Shown: piece after piece, positions 13,337 through 18,355 of the stretch | How the letters are laid out: each line of letters begins with the position of its first letter | Numbering within the stretch: position 1 is the stretch's first letter | Assembly: GCA_035690365.1 (NCBI GenBank) | Contig: DASSKP010000034.1 | Coordinates: 9,209-73,208 of the forward strand | Direction of reading: 5' to 3' | DNA from: Mycobacteriales bacterium | GTDB taxonomy: Bacteria > Actinomycetota > Actinomycetes > JAFAQI01 | Length of the DNA: 64,000 nt | Made by a program: the position numbers and the translations under genes | Notes under the pieces: generated by a model | Told to the model about the DNA's origin: nothing | Database searches by the model: none | Seen by the model: the letters and a program-made list of their open reading frames with translations, nothing else

Positions 13337-14230
13337 GTGCCAGACACTCAGTACGCCGCTGCCAACGGGCTGAAGCTCGCCTACGAGACGTTCGGTTCTC
13401 CCGACCAACCCCCGGTGCTGCTCATCATGGGCCTGGGCACGCAGATGATCGCGTGGCCGGACGAAATGTGCGAGCAGATCGCGGATCGCGGCTTCTACGT
13501 CATTCGCTACGACAACCGCGACATCGGCCTGTCGACCCATCTCGACGAGCTGCCGACGCCGTCGATGCGCGACATCCTGTTGCGCCGCAGGCCGCCGTAC
13601 AAGGTCAGTGACATGGCCGCCGACGGCGTCGCACTCATGGACGAGCTCGGCATCGACTCGGCACACGTCGTCGGTGCGTCGATGGGCGGCTTCATCGCGC
13701 AGATCATCGCCGGCAAGTACCCCAACCGTGTCCGCAGCCTGACGCTGATCATGACGTCCACCGGTTCGAGGCTGGTCGGTCATCCGCGCCCGCAGCTCAT
13801 CCGCCACCTGTTCACGCGCCGTGTCATCAACGACCGCTCCGATGCCGAGCAGGCCGTCATCGAGACGTTCGCGCTGATCGGGTCGAAGGGCTACGCGCTC
13901 GACGAGGAATACCTCCGCGATCTCGCCGGCCGCAGCTACGAGCGCTCGCTCGACCGGCGCGGCTACCTGCGCCAGCTCGCGGCCGTGATGGCGCAGCGCA
14001 ACCGCACGAAGTTCCTGCGCGACATCAGGGTGCCGACGCTGGTCATGCACGGGCTCGACGACCCGCTGGTCAACGTGAGCGGTGGTCTGGCGCTCGCGAA
14101 GCACATTCGCGGCGCGCAGTTCGTCGGCTTCAAGGGCATGGGTCACGACCTGCCGAGAGAGCTGTGGCCGCGGTTCGCCGACGAGATCTGTGCGATCGCC
14201 GCACGTGGCGAAAAGGTTCCGACGCCCTGA
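13337..14230 (+). CDS. alpha/beta hydrolase
   Basis: NGLKLAYETFG...PVLLIMGLG, nucleophile elbow VVGASMGG, and C-terminal MGHDLP. The start is uncertain (GTG 13337 or in-frame GTG 13256). Confidence 0.8.
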   Translation: MPDTQYAAANGLKLAYETFGSPDQPPVLLIMGLGTQMIAWPDEMCEQIADRGFYVIRYDNRDIGLSTHLDELPTPSMRDILLRRRPPYKVSDMAADGVALMDELGIDSAHVVGASMGGFIAQIIAGKYPNRVRSLTLIMTSTGSRLVGHPRPQLIRHLFTRRVINDRSDAEQAVIETFALIGSKGYALDEEYLRDLAGRSYERSLDRRGYLRQLAAVMAQRNRTKFLRDIRVPTLVMHGLDDPLVNVSGGLALAKHIRGAQFVGFKGMGHDLPRELWPRFADEICAIAARGEKVPTP

Positions 14231-14309
14231 CCTGAGGTCAGCCGGGGTTTCGCTCACACTGCGCGCCGGGTATGCGCGGTTTGAGTCGAATTGTTCCCCG
14301 GAGGTCGTC

Positions 14310-14936
14310 GTGACAAAGCCGTCCCGCATTTCCCGCGAAGAGCTCGCCCGCGAGAGCGCCACTGCCCTCCCGGACAAGGAAGTCCTCTCGCTGCTCGACC
14401 TCAACGCGAACCTCGACCTCGCGCTGGACGCTGCCGCACCGATCGACCTCGCCATCGGTGCCAACGCCAACATCGCCGCGCCGATCGAAGCGGCCGCGAG
14501 CGCCAACGTGCTGTCGCCGGACGCCATCTCTGCGGCGCAGGGTCAGCAGGCGACGGCCATCGACCAGACCATCACCGGCGACGCGACGGCGCACGGTCTG
14601 CAGGACAGCACGATCAACCAGGGCGCGACGACCGGCGACACGACGCAGCCGGTCGACCCGGCGACCACGAGCACCACCGGGTCGCTCACCGACGGCAACC
14701 TGCTCGACGTCAACGTCAACCTCAACGGCGACCTCAACCTGGCCGCGCCGATCGACGGCGCGGTTGCGGCCAACGCCAACGCCGCTGCGCCGATCGACGC
14801 GGCCGTGTCGGCCAACATCGACTCGCCGGGTGCGGAGTCCGTGGCCGTCGCCGACCAGACCGCTCTCATCGACCAGAGCATCACCGGCGACGCCACCGCG
14901 GTCTCCGACCAGGTGTCCAACATCGCCCAGCCGTGA
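14310..14936 (+). CDS. Cys-free Ala/Asn/Asp-rich protein with an internal duplication, unknown function (candidate protease substrate or precursor)
   Basis: GGAGG lies 5 nt before GTG 14310. The protein is 208 aa with no signal peptide and high GC3. Two units of about 78 aa each read LLD(L/V)N...AAPID...ANANxAAPI(E/D)AA(A/V)SAN...IDQ(T/S)ITGDATA. Confidence 0.75.
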   Translation: MTKPSRISREELARESATALPDKEVLSLLDLNANLDLALDAAAPIDLAIGANANIAAPIEAAASANVLSPDAISAAQGQQATAIDQTITGDATAHGLQDSTINQGATTGDTTQPVDPATTSTTGSLTDGNLLDVNVNLNGDLNLAAPIDGAVAANANAAAPIDAAVSANIDSPGAESVAVADQTALIDQSITGDATAVSDQVSNIAQP

Positions 14937-14956
14937 CGGGCGGCTAGCCGCTTCCG

Positions 14957-17278
14957 ATGACCGCCGTCGATCGGCGTACCGCCGGCGCGGACACCACGCA
15001 GAGCCTGCCGGCCGGGACGTCCCCGCAGGGGGATGTCCCGGTCCTCGTTTCCGGCACGCAGCTGCTCGGTGTCCAGCCCGGTTCGGGATACGTCACTCCT
15101 CCGCTGCTCGTCTGCCGTGCCGACGGGCAGGTCATGCACCTCACTCCGTTGCTGTACGCCGTCCTCGAAGCCGTCGACGGGGAGCGCGGTCTCGAGCAGA
15201 TCGCGCGCTTGGTCAGCGGCGTCAGTGACTACGAGCTGCACGCCGAGGACGTCGAGATGCTTGTCGAGGACAAGCTGCGTCCGCTGGGTCTTGTGCTCGG
15301 TCGCGACGGCACACATCCGCCGTTCAAGCGCACCAACCCGTTGCTGGCGCTGCGGGCGCGTTTCGTCGTCTCCAAGCCGGAGGTCACCCGCCGGATCACC
15401 GCGCCGTTCGCCGTGCTGTTCAATCCGGTCCTCGTCGTCGTCTCGACGATCGCCTTCGCTCTCGTCTCGTTCTGGGTGCTGTTCGAGAAGGGTCTCGCGT
15501 CGGCGGCGTACGACGCCTTTCGTCAGCCGGGCTTGTTGCTTGCGGTGTTCGCCATCACGGTGGTGTCGGCGGGTTTCCACGAGTTCGGGCATGCCGCCGC
15601 GTTGCGGCGCGGCGGCGGTACCCCTGGCGCGATGGGCGCCGGCCTCTACCTGATCTACCCGGCGTTCTACACCGACGTCACCGACAGCTACCGACTCGGT
15701 CGTGGCGCTCGCATCCGCACCGACCTCGGCGGGCTCTACTTCAACGCGTTGGCGGCTCTCGCGATGTTCGGCGTCTGGGCGCTGACGCGTTGGGACGGTC
15801 TGCTGCTCGTCATCGCGGCGCAGATCCTGCAGATGGTGCGGCAGCTGCCGCCGCTCGTTCGGTTCGACGGCTACCACTTGCTCGCCGACATCACCGGCGT
15901 GCCGGACTTGTTCCACCGGATCGGTCCGACCCTGCGCAGCTTCCTGCCGAAGCGTTGGCGACGACCGGAGTCACGCGAGCTCAAGCTGTGGGCTCGAATC
16001 ATCGTCACCCTCTGGACCTTGCTCGTCGTCCCGATCCTGATCCTGACGATGCTGCTGTCCGTCATCGCGTTGCCGCGCATCATCGGCACGACCATCCACT
16101 CGGTCGCGGTGCAGTGGCACCAGCTGATGCAGCAGCAGCACGCCGGTCATGCGGCCGGCGTCGGCGTCAAGATCCTCGCGATCGCCGCGCTCGTGGTGCC
16201 CGTCGGCGGCATCCTCTATCTGCTGGCGCGGATGGTGCGCAGCTACGCCGTCCGCACCTGGACCGCGACGCGAGGCAAGCCGGGAAAGCGCGCGCTCGCG
16301 GGAGTGCTGACGCTGGCCCTGCTCGGTGGCCTGGCCTACGCCTGGGCCCCACGGCCCGGTATCTACCGGCCGATCACGCCCAATGAGCACGGCACGATCC
16401 AGGACGTGCTCGGCTACTCACCACTGCACTCGCTCGTCGCCTCGCAGACCTCGCTTCGCGTCGGTGAGCAGAGCACCGCCCGAACGCTCTGGCCCGCAGG
16501 GTCGGCTCTCCCGACCAAGGGCAACCCCGCGGTCGCGCTGGTCATGACGCCCAAGCAGACCGGCAGCGGCCTGCCGACGTGGGTCTTCCCGTTCGACCGG
16601 CCGGCCCCGCCACGACCGGGTGACAACCAGGCGCTGTCGATCGTGACGACCGACGGGGGCACGGCCTACAACGTCGCCTTCGCGCTGGTGTGGGCCAACA
16701 GCGACAGCGTGGTGAACGCCAACGAGGCCTATGCGTTCGCGAGCTGCACGAAATGCGTTGCCGTCGCGATCGCGTTCCAGGTCGTGGTCGTCGTCGGTGA
16801 CGCTCATCTCGTCGCTCCGGCGAACATCTCCGAGGCGATCAACTACAACTGCATCTCCTGTGTGACCGCAGCGCTCGCCGTGCAGCTCGTGCTGCACGTG
16901 CCGGATCAGCTGAGCGACCAGGCGATGGCGCAGCTCACCAAGCTCTGGGCGCGCATCATGCGCTGGAGCAAGCACCTCAAGGGCCTGACCTTCGCCCAGA
17001 TCGAGAAGCAGATCAAGATCTTCGAAGCGCAGATCATCGCGATCGTCCAGCCGGACCTCGTGCTCGCCAACGCGTCCGCCTCGGCGTCGCCGAGTGCCGG
17101 CGTCTCTTCGACGCCGTCGCCGGGTGCGAGTGCTCTTCCCACGGACAGTCCGAGCGCGGGCACGACCAGCGACCCGAGTGCGTCGGCCTCACCGTCCCCG
17201 AGCGACACCGGTACGCCGTCCGGATCCGCGTCGCCGTCGTCCTCCGACACGTCGTCTCCGGCGCCGACGCCCAGCTGA
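14957..17278 (+). CDS. site-2-protease-like (peptidase M50) polytopic membrane protein with N-terminal PqqD/RRE-like region and C-terminal CxxC domain
   Basis: HEFGH (15578-15592) sits in a TM helix and FDGYHLL lies downstream (the second S2P metal-ligand motif). There are about 8 TM segments, two CxxC motifs (16745-16756 and 16850-16861), and a Ser/Pro-rich tail. Confidence 0.85.
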   Translation: MTAVDRRTAGADTTQSLPAGTSPQGDVPVLVSGTQLLGVQPGSGYVTPPLLVCRADGQVMHLTPLLYAVLEAVDGERGLEQIARLVSGVSDYELHAEDVEMLVEDKLRPLGLVLGRDGTHPPFKRTNPLLALRARFVVSKPEVTRRITAPFAVLFNPVLVVVSTIAFALVSFWVLFEKGLASAAYDAFRQPGLLLAVFAITVVSAGFHEFGHAAALRRGGGTPGAMGAGLYLIYPAFYTDVTDSYRLGRGARIRTDLGGLYFNALAALAMFGVWALTRWDGLLLVIAAQILQMVRQLPPLVRFDGYHLLADITGVPDLFHRIGPTLRSFLPKRWRRPESRELKLWARIIVTLWTLLVVPILILTMLLSVIALPRIIGTTIHSVAVQWHQLMQQQHAGHAAGVGVKILAIAALVVPVGGILYLLARMVRSYAVRTWTATRGKPGKRALAGVLTLALLGGLAYAWAPRPGIYRPITPNEHGTIQDVLGYSPLHSLVASQTSLRVGEQSTARTLWPAGSALPTKGNPAVALVMTPKQTGSGLPTWVFPFDRPAPPRPGDNQALSIVTTDGGTAYNVAFALVWANSDSVVNANEAYAFASCTKCVAVAIAFQVVVVVGDAHLVAPANISEAINYNCISCVTAALAVQLVLHVPDQLSDQAMAQLTKLWARIMRWSKHLKGLTFAQIEKQIKIFEAQIIAIVQPDLVLANASASASPSAGVSSTPSPGASALPTDSPSAGTTSDPSASASPSPSDTGTPSGSASPSSSDTSSPAPTPS

Positions 17279-17290
17279 CGCCGTCGGCCG

Positions 17291-17731
17291 TCAGGCGTCG
17301 ATGCGCTTCAGTGTGCGGCCGTCCGCGGGCTCACCGCAGGCGGCGCAGTGCACCCGCGGCACGAAGACCTCGCCGCAGTGGTGCTCGAGCACCGGCGGCA
17401 TCTGCCGGTGCATCACGTGGGTGTCGCCCCAGTGCTTGAGCGCCATCACCACTGGCCGCAGGTCGCGGCCGGCCTTGGTCAGGACGTACTCGTAGCGGGG
17501 TGGCCGGTCGGAGTAGGGCCGCCGTTCGACGATGCCGAGGTCCTCCAGCCGGCGCAGCCGCGCGGTGAGGATGTCGCGTGGCGCTCCGGTGTGGGCGGCG
17601 ATGTCGTTGAAGCGCTGCACGCCGAGGATCAGCTCGCGCACGACGAGCAGCGACCACTTCTCGCCGATGACGTCGAGAGCTCCGGCCACGGAGCAGAGCC
17701 GAGGCGAGACGGTAGCGGGCGAGGGCGTCAC
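17291..17731 (-). CDS. HxlR family transcriptional regulator
   Basis: GEKWSLLVVRELILGVQRFNDI and the winged-helix pattern are typical of HxlR/DUF24. It is divergent from the thioesterase-MFS operon. Confidence 0.85.
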   Translation of the reverse strand: MTPSPATVSPRLCSVAGALDVIGEKWSLLVVRELILGVQRFNDIAAHTGAPRDILTARLRRLEDLGIVERRPYSDRPPRYEYVLTKAGRDLRPVVMALKHWGDTHVMHRQMPPVLEHHCGEVFVPRVHCAACGEPADGRTLKRIDA

Positions 17732-17833: not shown

Positions 17834-18355
17834 ATGACCGCACTGTCGACCGATCCCGTCGCTTCGGCCGTCCCCACCCTCGGCGTGGTCGAGCCGATCG
17901 CCGACCGGCTCGCGCGGCTGGCGCCGACCTACGACGGCATGGACTTCCTCCGCGCCATCCAAAACGGTGAGCTGCCGCCGCCGCCCGTCGCGAGCCTGCT
18001 CGGCTTCGACATCGTCGACGTCTCGCGAGGCGAGATCACGTTCGCGATGACGCCGGCGGAGAAGCACTACAACCCGATCGGCAGCGTGCACGGCGGCGTC
18101 ATCGCCACCCTTCTCGACACGGTGATGGGGTGTGCGCTGCACACTCTGCTGCCCCGGGGGGCGTGGTACACGACGCTCGACATCAACGTCCGCTACCACT
18201 GTGGCATCACGCTGCGCACCGGACCGGTCACTGCGGTCGGCTCCGTCCTCCACTGCGGACGCCGTACGGCGACCGCGGAGGGCAAGGTCGTCGAGCAGAG
18301 CACCGGGCGGTTGATGGCGACCTCGACCTCGACGCTGCTGGTCGTCCGCCAGTGA
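17834..18355 (+). CDS. PaaI family (hotdog-fold) thioesterase
   Basis: GAGAGGA RBS. NPIGSVHGGVIATLLDTVMG is the characteristic PaaI motif. The track extension from 17348 was rejected. Confidence 0.8.
   Translation: MTALSTDPVASAVPTLGVVEPIADRLARLAPTYDGMDFLRAIQNGELPPPPVASLLGFDIVDVSRGEITFAMTPAEKHYNPIGSVHGGVIATLLDTVMGCALHTLLPRGAWYTTLDINVRYHCGITLRTGPVTAVGSVLHCGRRTATAEGKVVEQSTGRLMATSTSTLLVVRQ

What the first reader, a model, noticed from the sequence alone, without database searches (positions are those of the whole stretch)
14391..14933. Internal duplication of a unit of about 78 aa with ANANxAAPI(D/E)AAxSAN and IDQ(T/S)ITGDATA motifs
Unit 1 (aa 28-104, nt 14391-14621) reads LLDLNANLDLALDAAAPIDLAIGANANIAAPIEAAASANVLSPDAISAAQGQQATAIDQTITGDATAHGLQDSTINQ. 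Unit 2 (aa 131-208, nt 14700-14933) reads LLDVNVNLNGDLNLAAPIDGAVAANANAAAPIDAAVSANIDSPGAESVAVADQTALIDQSITGDATAVSDQVSNIAQP.

The two units are colinear and joined by a Thr/Pro-rich linker. The composition is A, N, D, I, L, S, T and Q, with no aromatic residues, no Cys and almost no charged basic residues.

The short periodic xAxAxNxN pattern suggests a beta-solenoid or amyloid-like fold, or two tandem core peptides each with its own recognition helix. The N-terminal 27 residues (ISREELARESATALPDKEVLS) are different and charged.
Basis: seen in the sequence. Interest (0 to 1): 0.6.

Follow-up and report, generated by a model that had tools for sequence, protein, structure and literature searches.

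The report
Duplicated leader-bearing protein with dedicated membrane protease
The duplicated 78-residue unit is real and ancient, and the protein belongs to a large unnamed family of actinobacterial leader-carrying proteins always encoded just upstream of a membrane zinc protease with a leader-binding domain, a set-up so far described only for small peptide natural products.

Summary
The gene at 14310-14936 (+) encodes 208 aa. Its two 78-aa units align without gaps at 46/78 identical residues, with score 197 against 45±8 for shuffles.

The duplication is old. In 72 orthologues the unit 1 and unit 2 sequences form separate clades. The gene is under purifying selection (dN/dS 0.066).

The protein has no Pfam, NCBIfam or PDB match. 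It has thousands of homologues in three classes of Actinomycetota.

In all 80 named genomes a homologue of the 773-aa downstream gene follows directly on the same strand. No third gene is conserved. That partner combines:
- a predicted RRE-like cytoplasmic domain;
- a site-2-protease core (HEFGH, FDGYH) homologous to the daptide leader peptidase;
- an external domain with two CxxC motifs.

Related loci instead carry three tandem 68-82-aa peptides. These share the leader (ELPDREAMSL) and a core matching the middle of each unit. There the CxxC domain is a separate protein with its own signal peptide.

Best reading (about 0.6): a protein-sized, two-core, leader-tagged substrate of its dedicated protease. 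No tailoring enzymes or transporter are linked, and the product's role is unknown.

A beta-strand periodicity is present. AlphaFold2 did not give a solenoid, and an amyloid fold could not be tested.

The parts
14298..14302 (+). GGAGG ribosome-binding site, 7 nt before the GTG start
   Evidence: Read directly from the sequence.
14310..14936 (+). Gene for the 208-aa leader-unit1-linker-unit2 protein (P0001), GTG start, TGA stop
   Evidence: The N-terminus matches orthologue N-termini. dN/dS is 0.066 against the 95%-identical orthologue L013. It is single-copy in its own genome.
14310..14390 (+). Leader-like N-terminal module, aa 1-27 (EELARE helix, then ALPDKEVLS). It holds all K/R of the protein.
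   Evidence: It holds most of the densest cluster of invariant residues in 72 orthologues: L20 P21 K23 E24 V25 S27, continuing into unit 1 as L29 D30 N32. The same ELPD(K/R)E-x-x-SL motif heads the short tandem precursors of related loci.
14391..14621 (+). Unit 1 (aa 28-104)
   Evidence: Self-alignment. Invariant Q80, Q86, Q98 and Q104. The unit 1 sequences form their own clade.
14622..14699 (+). Gly/Thr/Ala/Asp/Pro-rich variable linker (aa 105-130)
   Evidence: Length is 21-81 aa in 72 orthologues, with composition G 19%, T 19%, A 18%, D 12% and P 10%. It is expanded to hundreds of residues of GxxxGTLD-type repeats in Nocardioides.
14700..14933 (+). Unit 2 (aa 131-208). The invariant Q207 is at or next to the C-terminus.
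   Evidence: Self-alignment. Invariant Q183, Q189, Q201 and Q207. 50 of 72 orthologues end exactly at Q207.
14957..17278 (+). Partner gene: 773-aa membrane metalloprotease (RRE-like domain, S2P core, external CxxC domain), starting 20 nt after the stop of the repeat gene
   Evidence: It lies immediately downstream on the same strand in 90 of 92 loci, including all 80 named genomes. NCBIfam daptide_HExxH gives E 9e-27 and 94 bits, below the 300-bit cutoff; YydH/LiaK gives E 1e-7.
15044..15316 (+). Cytoplasmic N-terminal domain (aa 30-120) predicted as three strands then three helices (RRE/PqqD-like)
   Evidence: AlphaFold2 pLDDT is 82-91 over most of aa 31-120 (one block of 62), with strands at 35-39, 50-53 and 59-62 and helices at 64-72, 79-89 and 96-107. 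Foldseek top hits include the lasso-peptide RRE proteins TbiB1 (5v1u_B, probability 0.92, TM 0.61) and 6jx3_B, but with E about 0.5.
15578..15592 (+). HEFGH zinc-binding/catalytic motif (aa 208-212) in a transmembrane helix
   Evidence: H208, E209 and H212 are invariant in 57 homologues.
15863..15877 (+). FDGYH (aa 303-307), the second S2P metal-ligand motif
   Evidence: D304, G305 and H307 are invariant.
16574..17056 (+). Extracytoplasmic domain (aa about 540-700) with CTKC (597-600) and CISC (632-635)
   Evidence: All four Cys are invariant. Hydropathy and the positive-inside rule place it outside. In short-type loci the same domain is a separate ORF; the two copies read in full (L093, L103) start with a Sec-type signal peptide.
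17069..17275 (+). Ser/Pro/Thr-rich low-complexity C-terminal tail (aa 705-773)
   Evidence: Sequence. pLDDT is below 40. A similar tail ends the stand-alone CxxC proteins.

Best explanation
The 208-aa protein is the dedicated, leader-tagged substrate ('precursor') of the membrane metalloprotease encoded 20 nt downstream.

Proposed mechanism:
1. Residues 1-27 act as a leader: an acidic helix followed by the invariant L-P-x-K-E-V-x-S.
2. The cytoplasmic RRE-like domain of the protease binds this leader.
3. That binding brings the junction to the HEFGH/FDGYH site-2-protease active site at the inner face of the membrane.
4. Cleavage there releases a Lys/Arg-free, very acidic product. The product consists of two ancient copies of a beta-strand-rich 78-aa unit joined by a flexible linker.
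5. Each unit is an expanded version of the roughly 35-45-aa core found in short three-copy precursors of sister loci.
6. The external CxxC domain acts on, receives, or controls the product from outside the cytoplasm. It is fused here and is a separate ORF in the sister loci, with a signal peptide where read.

Shown here: the duplication and its age, purifying selection, strict gene pairing, the shared leader motif, intact protease motifs, homology to the daptide leader peptidase, and the fusion or separation of the CxxC domain.

Inferred: leader binding by the RRE-like domain, cleavage itself and its site, the location of the product, and its function.
For: - Pairing: the protease gene is directly downstream on the same strand in 90 of 92 loci (the two exceptions are short loci), including all 80 named genomes from Actinomycetes, Acidimicrobiia and Thermoleophilia. 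No third gene is shared by more than 10 of the 80.
- Partner identity: it is homologous over aa 51-378 to NCBIfam's daptide intramembrane metalloprotease (E 9e-27) and to YydH/LiaK. Both metal motifs are invariant. MpaP/DapP is described as an RRE-fused site-2 protease that removes the leader (PMC10036551).
- RRE-like fold: the N-terminal domain is predicted as three strands then three helices at pLDDT 82-91 over most of aa 31-120. Lasso-peptide RRE proteins bound to leaders are among the best Foldseek matches (TM 0.61).
- Leader: L20 P21 K23 E24 V25 S27 L29 D30 N32 form the densest invariant cluster of the protein.
- Sister loci: the same motif (ELPDRE(A/Q)MSL) heads triplets of 68-82-aa ORFs that sit directly upstream of 40-48%-identical proteases in about a dozen other genomes. 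Multi-copy short ORFs next to an RRE-peptidase were the argument used to call daptide precursors.
- Core relationship: the short core aligns with aa 52-86 of unit 1 in this genome, and with both units in relatives.
- Real gene: dN/dS is 0.066. Unit 1 and unit 2 have been maintained separately since before these classes diverged.
- External partners: the CxxC domain is fused in long-type loci (77 of 92 loci) and a separate ORF in short-type loci, with a signal peptide in the two copies read in full. A lipoprotein follows in 6 of the 11 enlarged short-type loci.
Against: - No cleavage, binding or expression data exist.
- The RRE assignment rests on a predicted fold with weak Foldseek statistics (E about 0.5). 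No Pfam PqqD hit was found, and Pfam Peptidase_M50 also fails to hit at E ≤ 0.1.
- The NCBIfam scores are well below the family cutoffs.
- Known RRE-S2P substrates are small peptides that are chemically modified and leave through linked ABC transporters. Here no tailoring enzyme or transporter is conserved, so how or whether a 180-aa acidic product leaves the cell is unexplained.
- AlphaFold2 cannot fold the most conserved half of each unit (pLDDT below 50).
Confidence: 0.6

Rival explanations
1. Signal-regulated activation of a cytoplasmic pro-protein. The external CxxC domain is a sensor (for example of redox state) that gates intramembrane proteolysis, as SpoIVFA/BofA gate SpoIVFB cleavage of pro-sigma-K. 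The cleaved two-unit protein then acts inside the cell and is never exported.
For: - The protein has no signal peptide or transmembrane segment (maximum 19-residue hydropathy 1.16).
- No transporter is conserved nearby.
- S2P active sites open to the cytoplasmic side, and SpoIVFB cleaves a soluble pro-protein (PMC11486902, abstract listed).
- The external domain with four invariant Cys could be a sensor.
Against: - In short-type loci the CxxC domain is a separate ORF, with a signal peptide where read, and is often followed by a lipoprotein. This fits an outside partner of the product at least as well as a sensor.
- Triplicated 70-aa peptides with neutral Ala/Asn cores look like exported peptides rather than cytoplasmic regulators.
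- No DNA-binding or enzymatic feature is detectable in the units.
Confidence: 0.15
2. A self-assembling beta-sheet (amyloid-like or solenoid) surface or structural protein. Removal of the leader licenses polymerisation, and the membrane-anchored CxxC domain with its Ser/Pro tail nucleates or anchors the polymer. This is the first reader's fold idea, and it is compatible with the best explanation as a statement about what the product does.
For: - Strong period-2 hydrophobic alternation and a 14-residue sub-repeat.
- Invariant Asn (N54, N155, N157) and regularly spaced invariant Gln (80/86/98/104 and 183/189/201/207).
- AlphaFold2 gives long beta hairpins in half of each unit and fails on the most conserved half, as expected if folding needs a partner or oligomer.
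- The product is essentially free of Lys/Arg and aromatic residues across orthologues.
- There is weak similarity between the core and the CxxC segments: hhalign E 0.014, and ungapped profile window p about 0.009.
Against: - No solenoid is predicted (pTM 0.30), and there is no structural or sequence match to any solved fibre, curli, chaplin or beta-helix protein.
- A net charge of about -25 disfavours aggregation without counter-ions.
- No secretion route is identified.
- The core-CxxC similarity has hhalign probability 3% and an ambiguous register.
Confidence: 0.15
3. A polyprotein of two bioactive peptides (an unmodified bacteriocin or signalling peptide). The protease cuts before each unit at the shared (S/N)LLD(L/V)N start and releases two peptides of about 80 aa.
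For: - Both units begin with the same conserved LLD-x-N motif. G129, L131 and L132 are invariant before and at the start of unit 2.
- In one metagenomic contig the two units are separate ORFs upstream of the protease.
- Sister loci encode separate short peptides.
- The taxonomic distribution is patchy: 10 of 41 relatives and 33 of 301 genomes of the class.
Against: - Unit 2 has no leader, and the linker is not conserved.
- No immunity or export gene is linked.
- Unit 1 and unit 2 are maintained as distinct orthologous lineages in one polypeptide across three classes, which suggests they work together.
Confidence: 0.08
4. Not a functional gene: a low-complexity, high-GC open frame.
For: In this high-GC DNA long shadow ORFs overlap the region on other frames and strands.
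Against: - dN/dS is 0.066.
- At least 3841 homologues score at E ≤ 1e-3, and there are 378 clusters at 50% identity.
- 41 columns are invariant over three classes.
- A GGAGG ribosome-binding site precedes the start.
Confidence: 0.02

Closest known systems
Daptide system: precursors MpaA1-3 and the RRE-fused intramembrane site-2 leader peptidase MpaP/DapP (Microbacterium paraoxydans; PMC10036551)
   Same: - The protease is the closest named relative (NCBIfam NF041824, E 9e-27 over aa 51-378).
- It has the same plan: an N-terminal RRE-type domain fused to an HExxH/DG membrane core.
- The precursor gene or genes lie directly upstream.
- The leader is acidic and ends in a Pro-containing motif.
- Sister loci carry multi-copy precursors, as daptide clusters do (2.3 per cluster).
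- The system is actinobacterial.
   Different: - The score is far below the 300-bit equivalog cutoff.
- The leader motif is E-L-x-x-E...L-P-D-K-E-V-x-S, not ELExMEAP.
- There is no invariant C-terminal Thr; most orthologues end in Gln.
- No MpaB/C/D/M-type tailoring enzymes and no ABC transporter are conserved.
- The substrate is 208 aa (up to about 480 in the loci read here) with two 78-aa units, not a 20-30-aa hydrophobic core.
- The protease carries about 400 extra residues, including three more predicted membrane helices and an external CxxC domain.
YydF/YydH epipeptide system of Bacillus subtilis (KEGG K16922, 'putative peptide zinc metalloprotease protein', the name IMG gives this partner)
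   Same: The HExxH membrane protease is homologous (NF058609, E 1e-7; IMG names). A small gene upstream is its presumed substrate.
   Different: There is no radical-SAM epimerase (YydG) and no YydIJ transporter. YydH lacks the RRE-like and CxxC domains. The score is below the cutoff.
SpoIVFB / pro-sigma-K (site-2 protease cleaving a soluble pro-protein)
   Same: An S2P-type enzyme removes an N-terminal pro-sequence from a protein-sized substrate that has no membrane span and is encoded without a signal peptide. Activity is controlled by partner proteins with external parts (PMC11486902).
   Different: There is no sequence relationship of the substrate to sigma factors. The protease domain architecture is different (RRE-like rather than CBS domain). 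This is an analogy only.
Functional amyloid and surface-fibre subunits (curli CsgA with nucleator CsgB; Streptomyces chaplins). This comparison rests on my own knowledge.
   Same: The units are short imperfect strand-forming repeats with Asn/Gln at fixed spacing. A membrane- or surface-anchored partner could act as a nucleator.
   Different: There is no Sec signal peptide, no sequence or predicted-structure match, and the product is very acidic. This is a resemblance, not membership.

Membership tests
Daptide precursor (MpaA-type) | Leader with the ELExMEAP motif directly before the core | tested here: not met
   The motif is defined in PMC10036551. Here the conserved leader is E11-L12-x-x-E15...L20-P21-x-K23-E24-V25-x-S27. 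It is acidic with a Pro, but it is a different motif.
Daptide precursor (MpaA-type) | Invariant C-terminal Thr (the site of Dmp formation) | tested here: not met
   The window protein ends ...NIAQP. 50 of 72 orthologues end at the invariant Gln. The short-type relatives end variably in ST, SN, GN, TT or TQ.
Daptide gene cluster | Co-occurring DUF-RRE (MpaB), alcohol dehydrogenase (MpaC), aminotransferase (MpaD), methyltransferase (MpaM) and ABC transporter | tested here: not met
   No gene other than the protease is shared by more than 10 of 80 loci. The window neighbours are an alpha/beta hydrolase, an HxlR regulator and a thioesterase. The short-type locus L093 has none of these genes either.
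Daptide intramembrane metalloprotease (NCBIfam NF041824 equivalog) | Score at or above the curated cutoff of 300 bits | tested here: not met
   The score is 94.1 bits (E 9.3e-27) over model positions 20-351 of 379. The protein is homologous but not an equivalog.
Site-2 protease / peptidase M50 | HExxH in a membrane helix plus a downstream xDG metal-ligand motif | tested here: met
   HEFGH (208-212) and FDGYH (303-307). H208, E209, H212, D304 and G305 are invariant in 57 homologues.
Site-2 protease / peptidase M50 | Match to Pfam PF02163 (Peptidase_M50) | tested here: not met
   No Pfam family matched at E ≤ 0.1 except a spurious aldolase hit. The subfamily is divergent.
RiPP recognition element (PqqD-like winged helix) | Three-stranded sheet followed by three helices; structural match to solved RREs | tested here: inconclusive
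   AlphaFold2 gives three strands then three helices at aa 35-107, with pLDDT 82-91 over most of aa 31-120. The Foldseek hits TbiB1 5v1u_B (probability 0.92, TM 0.61, 91 columns) and 6jx3_B are among the top matches, but E is about 0.5 for the whole-protein query. There is no Pfam PqqD hit, and only a weak ApyI RiPP-binding hit at E 0.0056.
RiPP recognition element (PqqD-like winged helix) | Binds the leader of the cognate precursor | not testable with these tools
   This needs a binding assay or a multimer prediction. Only monomer prediction was available.
Epipeptide (YydF-type) system | Radical-SAM epimerase YydG and ABC transporter YydIJ next to the protease | tested here: not met
   Both are absent from the window and from the conserved neighbourhood.
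Beta-solenoid / pentapeptide-type repeat protein | Regular coil repeat predicted or matched as a solenoid | tested here: not met
   There is no Pfam repeat family. AlphaFold2 gives no solenoid (pTM 0.30). The sub-repeat period is 14; profile autocorrelation is negative at lag 5 and near zero at lag 10.
Functional amyloid subunit (curli, chaplin or Fap type) | Sec signal peptide and a dedicated secretion or nucleation partner; fibre formation | tested here: inconclusive
   There is no signal peptide or transmembrane segment. A conserved external CxxC partner exists, but its role is unknown. Fibre formation cannot be tested here.

The most novel reading that the evidence does not exclude
The cassette is a self-contained, Sec-independent route for building an extracellular beta-sheet polymer. 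The RRE-S2P enzyme strips the leader at the membrane. The Lys/Arg-free Asn/Gln-ladder units, or the short cores of sister loci, are handed to the outside. There the CxxC domain, which weakly resembles the core (AP-x-N...N...C/S-x-x-C/S...A-x-A-x-Q), nucleates or anchors their assembly on the actinobacterial envelope. That would be a new class of ribosomal, unmodified, leader-dependent structural peptides and proteins.
Probability: 0.15. Interest if true: 0.8.

Novelty: new variant of a known kind. Interest (0 to 1): 0.6.

Why it matters
RRE-fused site-2 proteases are so far described only as the last step of a small-peptide natural-product pathway, the daptides. In this family the same recognition-and-cleavage machinery is paired with something quite different:
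- a 200-480-aa, two-unit, very acidic protein, or triplets of unmodified 70-aa peptides in sister loci;
- no tailoring enzymes and no linked transporter;
- a conserved external CxxC partner.

The family is large: thousands of sequences in soil Actinomycetota across three classes. It is unnamed in Pfam and NCBIfam, and I found no paper on it.

Working out what the product is would show whether leader-guided intramembrane proteolysis is used for protein-sized or structural products. It would also add a genome-mining handle, the LPD(K/R)E leader plus the RRE-S2P-CxxC partner, for systems that current RiPP tools overlook.

Tried and rejected
- Pfam, NCBIfam and PADLOC scans of the repeat protein returned nothing.
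- A PDB profile search with the 72-sequence alignment returned nothing meaningful.
- Foldseek of the low-confidence model found no match.
- A PDB sequence search with the protease returned only noise.
- Whole-model Foldseek of the protease did not retrieve solved S2P structures. It gave only weak RRE hits.
- The pentapeptide or solenoid idea was rejected. The sub-repeat period is 14, not 5, and no solenoid is predicted.
- Daptide membership was rejected on three defining features.
- Homology between the units and the CxxC domain is marginal and the register is ambiguous. hhalign gives probability 3% and E 0.014; the permutation test gives p about 0.009. I kept it only as a lead.
- The conserved lipoprotein of short-type loci is absent from the window's genome and from all long-type loci.
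- Literature searches for the motifs (ANANVAAPI, LPDKEV and others) and for RRE plus site-2 protease systems found no description of this family. The TMcin papers concern a different, transmembrane-helix peptide class of Firmicutes.
- The sigma-70 promoter and intrinsic terminator scan of 14000-17700 found none.
Full report
**Observation.** The ORF begins at GTG 14310, with a GGAGG site 7 nt upstream, and ends at TGA 14936. It encodes 208 aa.
- They align without a gap over 78 residues, with 46 identical. The local BLOSUM62 score is 197, against 45±8 (maximum 85) for 1000 shuffles of one half. The duplication is therefore real and not a composition artefact.
- At the DNA level the copies are 67% identical. 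Third codon positions are the least conserved.
- The composition claims hold. There is no F, W, Y or C. All five K/R lie in the first 27 residues, and the remaining 181 residues have 22 D/E and no K/R.

**A real gene.**
- dN/dS against the 95%-identical orthologue in a Mycobacteriales MAG is 0.066.
- A word-indexed search scored 3841 proteins at E ≤ 1e-3 among the capped candidates. An exhaustive search of 50%-identity representatives found 378 clusters. All named hits are called 'hypothetical protein'.
- Named genomes carrying it include Frankiales, Jatrophihabitans, Pseudonocardiales, Streptosporangiaceae, Micromonosporaceae, Geodermatophilaceae, Nocardioides, Arthrobacter/Pseudarthrobacter, Terrabacter and Mycolicibacterium celeriflavum. 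Acidimicrobiales and Thermoleophilia (Solirubrobacteraceae, Gaiellaceae) also carry it.
- It is single-copy in its own 66%-complete genome. The distribution is patchy: 10 of 41 relatives have it.
- Pfam, NCBIfam, PADLOC and PDB give no match.

**Age of the duplication.** I compared 72 two-unit orthologues.
- Unit 1 sequences are 67% identical to each other.
- Unit 2 sequences are 66% identical to each other.
- Unit 1 against unit 2 is 53% within a protein and 52.5% between proteins.
- In a tree all 72 unit 1 sequences separate from all 72 unit 2 sequences (support 0.97).

The duplication therefore predates the spread of the gene through these lineages, and there is no concerted evolution. Both copies are maintained as distinct parts of one protein.

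In the homologues scanned with a unit profile, none had more than two units. What varies is the linker. It is 21-81 aa in these 72 orthologues. In Nocardioides it reaches several hundred residues of GxxxGTLD-type repeats.

**The partner.** In 90 of 92 loci a homologue of the window's 773-aa ORF (14957-17278) lies immediately downstream on the same strand. This includes all 80 loci from named genomes; the two exceptions are short loci. No other gene is shared by more than 10 of the 80.

Features of the partner:
- Invariant HEFGH (208-212) and FDGYH (303-307), the two site-2-protease metal motifs.
- Homology over aa 51-378 to NCBIfam's daptide intramembrane metalloprotease (E 9e-27, 94 bits, cutoff 300), and more weakly to YydH/LiaK.
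- IMG calls the homologues 'putative peptide zinc metalloprotease protein'.
- Pfam M50 itself does not hit.

AlphaFold2 with 57 homologues gives mean pLDDT 67. The N-terminal domain scores 82-91 over most of aa 31-120 and is built of three strands then three helices. Among the best Foldseek matches are the lasso-peptide RRE proteins TbiB1 and a B1 protein, each solved with its leader peptide (TM 0.61 and 0.54 on the target). The E-values are only about 0.5. The daptide paper describes MpaP/DapP as exactly such an RRE-fused site-2 protease that removes the leader (PMC10036551).

Hydropathy and the positive-inside rule put aa 1-145 in the cytoplasm and aa 467-773 outside. The outside part holds four invariant cysteines (CTKC 597-600 and CISC 632-635) and ends in a Ser/Pro-rich tail.

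**Short relatives.** A genome of the same family as the window's carries a different arrangement upstream of a 44%-identical protease. It has three tandem ORFs of 73-81 aa.
- Their leader is ...EELDxExGEELPDREAMSL.
- Their core is xNANLAAPVNAAVAANVLSDGSxAYANAxQ...IxQS(T/N).

A search of 301 genomes of the class found such arrays in about a dozen genomes, in sets of three in nearly all of them (one genome holds five copies on three contigs). The protease is next to them wherever the contig allows.

The short core matches aa 52-86 of unit 1 in this genome, and both units in relatives. Each 78-aa unit is therefore an expanded core. The leader motif L-P-D-(K/R)-E-x-x-S-L is shared. In the long form it lies in the densest cluster of invariant residues: L20 P21 K23 E24 V25 S27 L29 D30 N32.

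In every enlarged short-type locus where it was detected, the CxxC domain lies in a separate ORF just after the protease. The two copies read in full (L093, L103) start with a Sec-type signal peptide. A lipoprotein follows in 6 of the 11 enlarged short-type loci. In the long-type loci the CxxC domain is fused to the protease and the lipoprotein is absent. This fusion-versus-separation pattern ties the CxxC domain functionally to the system and supports its outside location.

**The unit itself.**
- Hydrophobicity alternates with period 2: 0.90 against 0.48±0.12, with 6 of 2000 permutations reaching it.
- The first half contains a 14-residue sub-repeat: LDLNANLDLALDAA / APIDLAIGANANIA / APIEAAASANVLSP.
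- Invariant Gln residues sit at 80/86/98/104 and at the same spacing in unit 2.
- 50 of 72 orthologues end exactly at Q207.
- AlphaFold2 gives a poor model: mean pLDDT 60 and pTM 0.30. Only the C-terminal half of each unit forms a three-strand meander at pLDDT 68-78. The most conserved Ala/Asn half stays below 50. Foldseek finds nothing.
- The protein is therefore strand-prone. A solenoid is not predicted, and amyloid formation is untested.

**Mechanism.**

What is shown:
- a strict two-gene unit;
- a shared leader motif across long and short forms;
- intact protease motifs;
- homology to a known RRE-dependent leader peptidase;
- an external CxxC partner.

What is inferred:
- the RRE-like domain binds the leader;
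- the S2P core cuts near the L-P-x-K-E-V-x-S junction;
- a Lys/Arg-free acidic two-unit product is released, and the CxxC domain acts on it or controls it from outside.

By analogy with the daptide cut after ...EAP, a cut after ALP is one candidate site, but the site is unknown. Whether the product leaves the cell is also open. No transporter is linked, unlike in daptide clusters.

A regulated-proteolysis reading, in the manner of SpoIVFB and pro-sigma-K, fits the same anatomy and is kept as a rival. So are a self-assembling surface polymer and a two-peptide polyprotein.

**Comparison and novelty.**
- The system works like an RRE-dependent S2P leader-peptidase system. It is not a daptide: the leader motif differs, there is no C-terminal Thr, no MpaB/C/D/M genes are linked, and the score is below the equivalog cutoff.
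- It is not an epipeptide system either.
- Motif and topic searches found no paper on the family.
- Earlier unchecked notes of this scan reached a similar reading in three other genomes. I re-derived the pairing, the short precursors and the CxxC split here.
- I rate it a new variant of a known kind, with moderate to high interest.

**Limits.** Only monomer structure prediction was available. The RRE call rests on a predicted fold with weak search statistics.

Noticed in passing
L093 9006-12865 (also L125-L132): These are short-type sister loci with a fixed order. Three tandem 68-82-aa leader-plus-core ORFs come first, then an RRE-S2P protease of about 560-610 aa, then a separate CxxC-domain ORF, then a lipoprotein. 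In L093 and L103 the CxxC protein starts with a Sec-type signal peptide. The lipoprotein has a weak NCBIfam 'SCO4651 family lipoprotein' hit (29 bits, below cutoff). It is present in 6 of the 11 enlarged short-type loci and absent from all long-type loci and from the window's genome.
   Followed up: partly
L124 127-504 and 547-1209: In this metagenomic contig the leader plus unit 1 (125 aa) and a repeat linker plus unit 2 (220 aa, no leader) are two separate ORFs, 42 nt apart, upstream of the protease. I did not determine whether this is a true split or a recent stop mutation.
   Followed up: no
L063, L067, L072, L076, L077, L079 (Nocardioides and relatives): The repeat gene is 403-481 aa in these loci. 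The linker between the two units has been expanded into many copies of a GxxxGTLDxxTGxV-type repeat, while the units themselves stay conserved.
   Followed up: partly
window 16745-16861 (protease aa 597-635) versus unit aa 51-80: The segments around each CxxC read like the peptide core, with Cys in place of Ser. Compare vvAPqNisaAVnYxCxxCvTxALAvQ with vAAPIdAavxANvxSxxSxAxaxaxQ. The statistics are marginal: hhalign E 0.014 with probability 3%, and ungapped profile window p about 0.009 with an ambiguous register.
   Followed up: partly
window 14931-14936 and alignment A1: 50 of 72 orthologues terminate exactly at the invariant Gln (Q207), and 12 more have one extra residue (P or Q). The mature part averages 0.2 K/R and 0.5 aromatic or Cys residues per protein, with net charge about -25.
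   Followed up: partly
G258 (contigs C163 and C55) and G111 (contig C1, two sites): Some genomes appear to carry both a short-type array and a long-type two-unit gene, so the two forms are not mutually exclusive.
   Followed up: no
window 13340-14230, 17291-17731 (-), 17840-18355: The immediate neighbours are an alpha/beta hydrolase, an HxlR-type regulator and a 4HBT thioesterase. None is conserved next to the pair in other genomes, so they are probably unrelated.
   Followed up: partly
L093 11394-12089: The stand-alone CxxC protein gives a very weak NCBIfam hit to 'bindosome assembly system protein BasB' (E 0.017, 15 bits against a cutoff of 230). This is probably chance.
   Followed up: no
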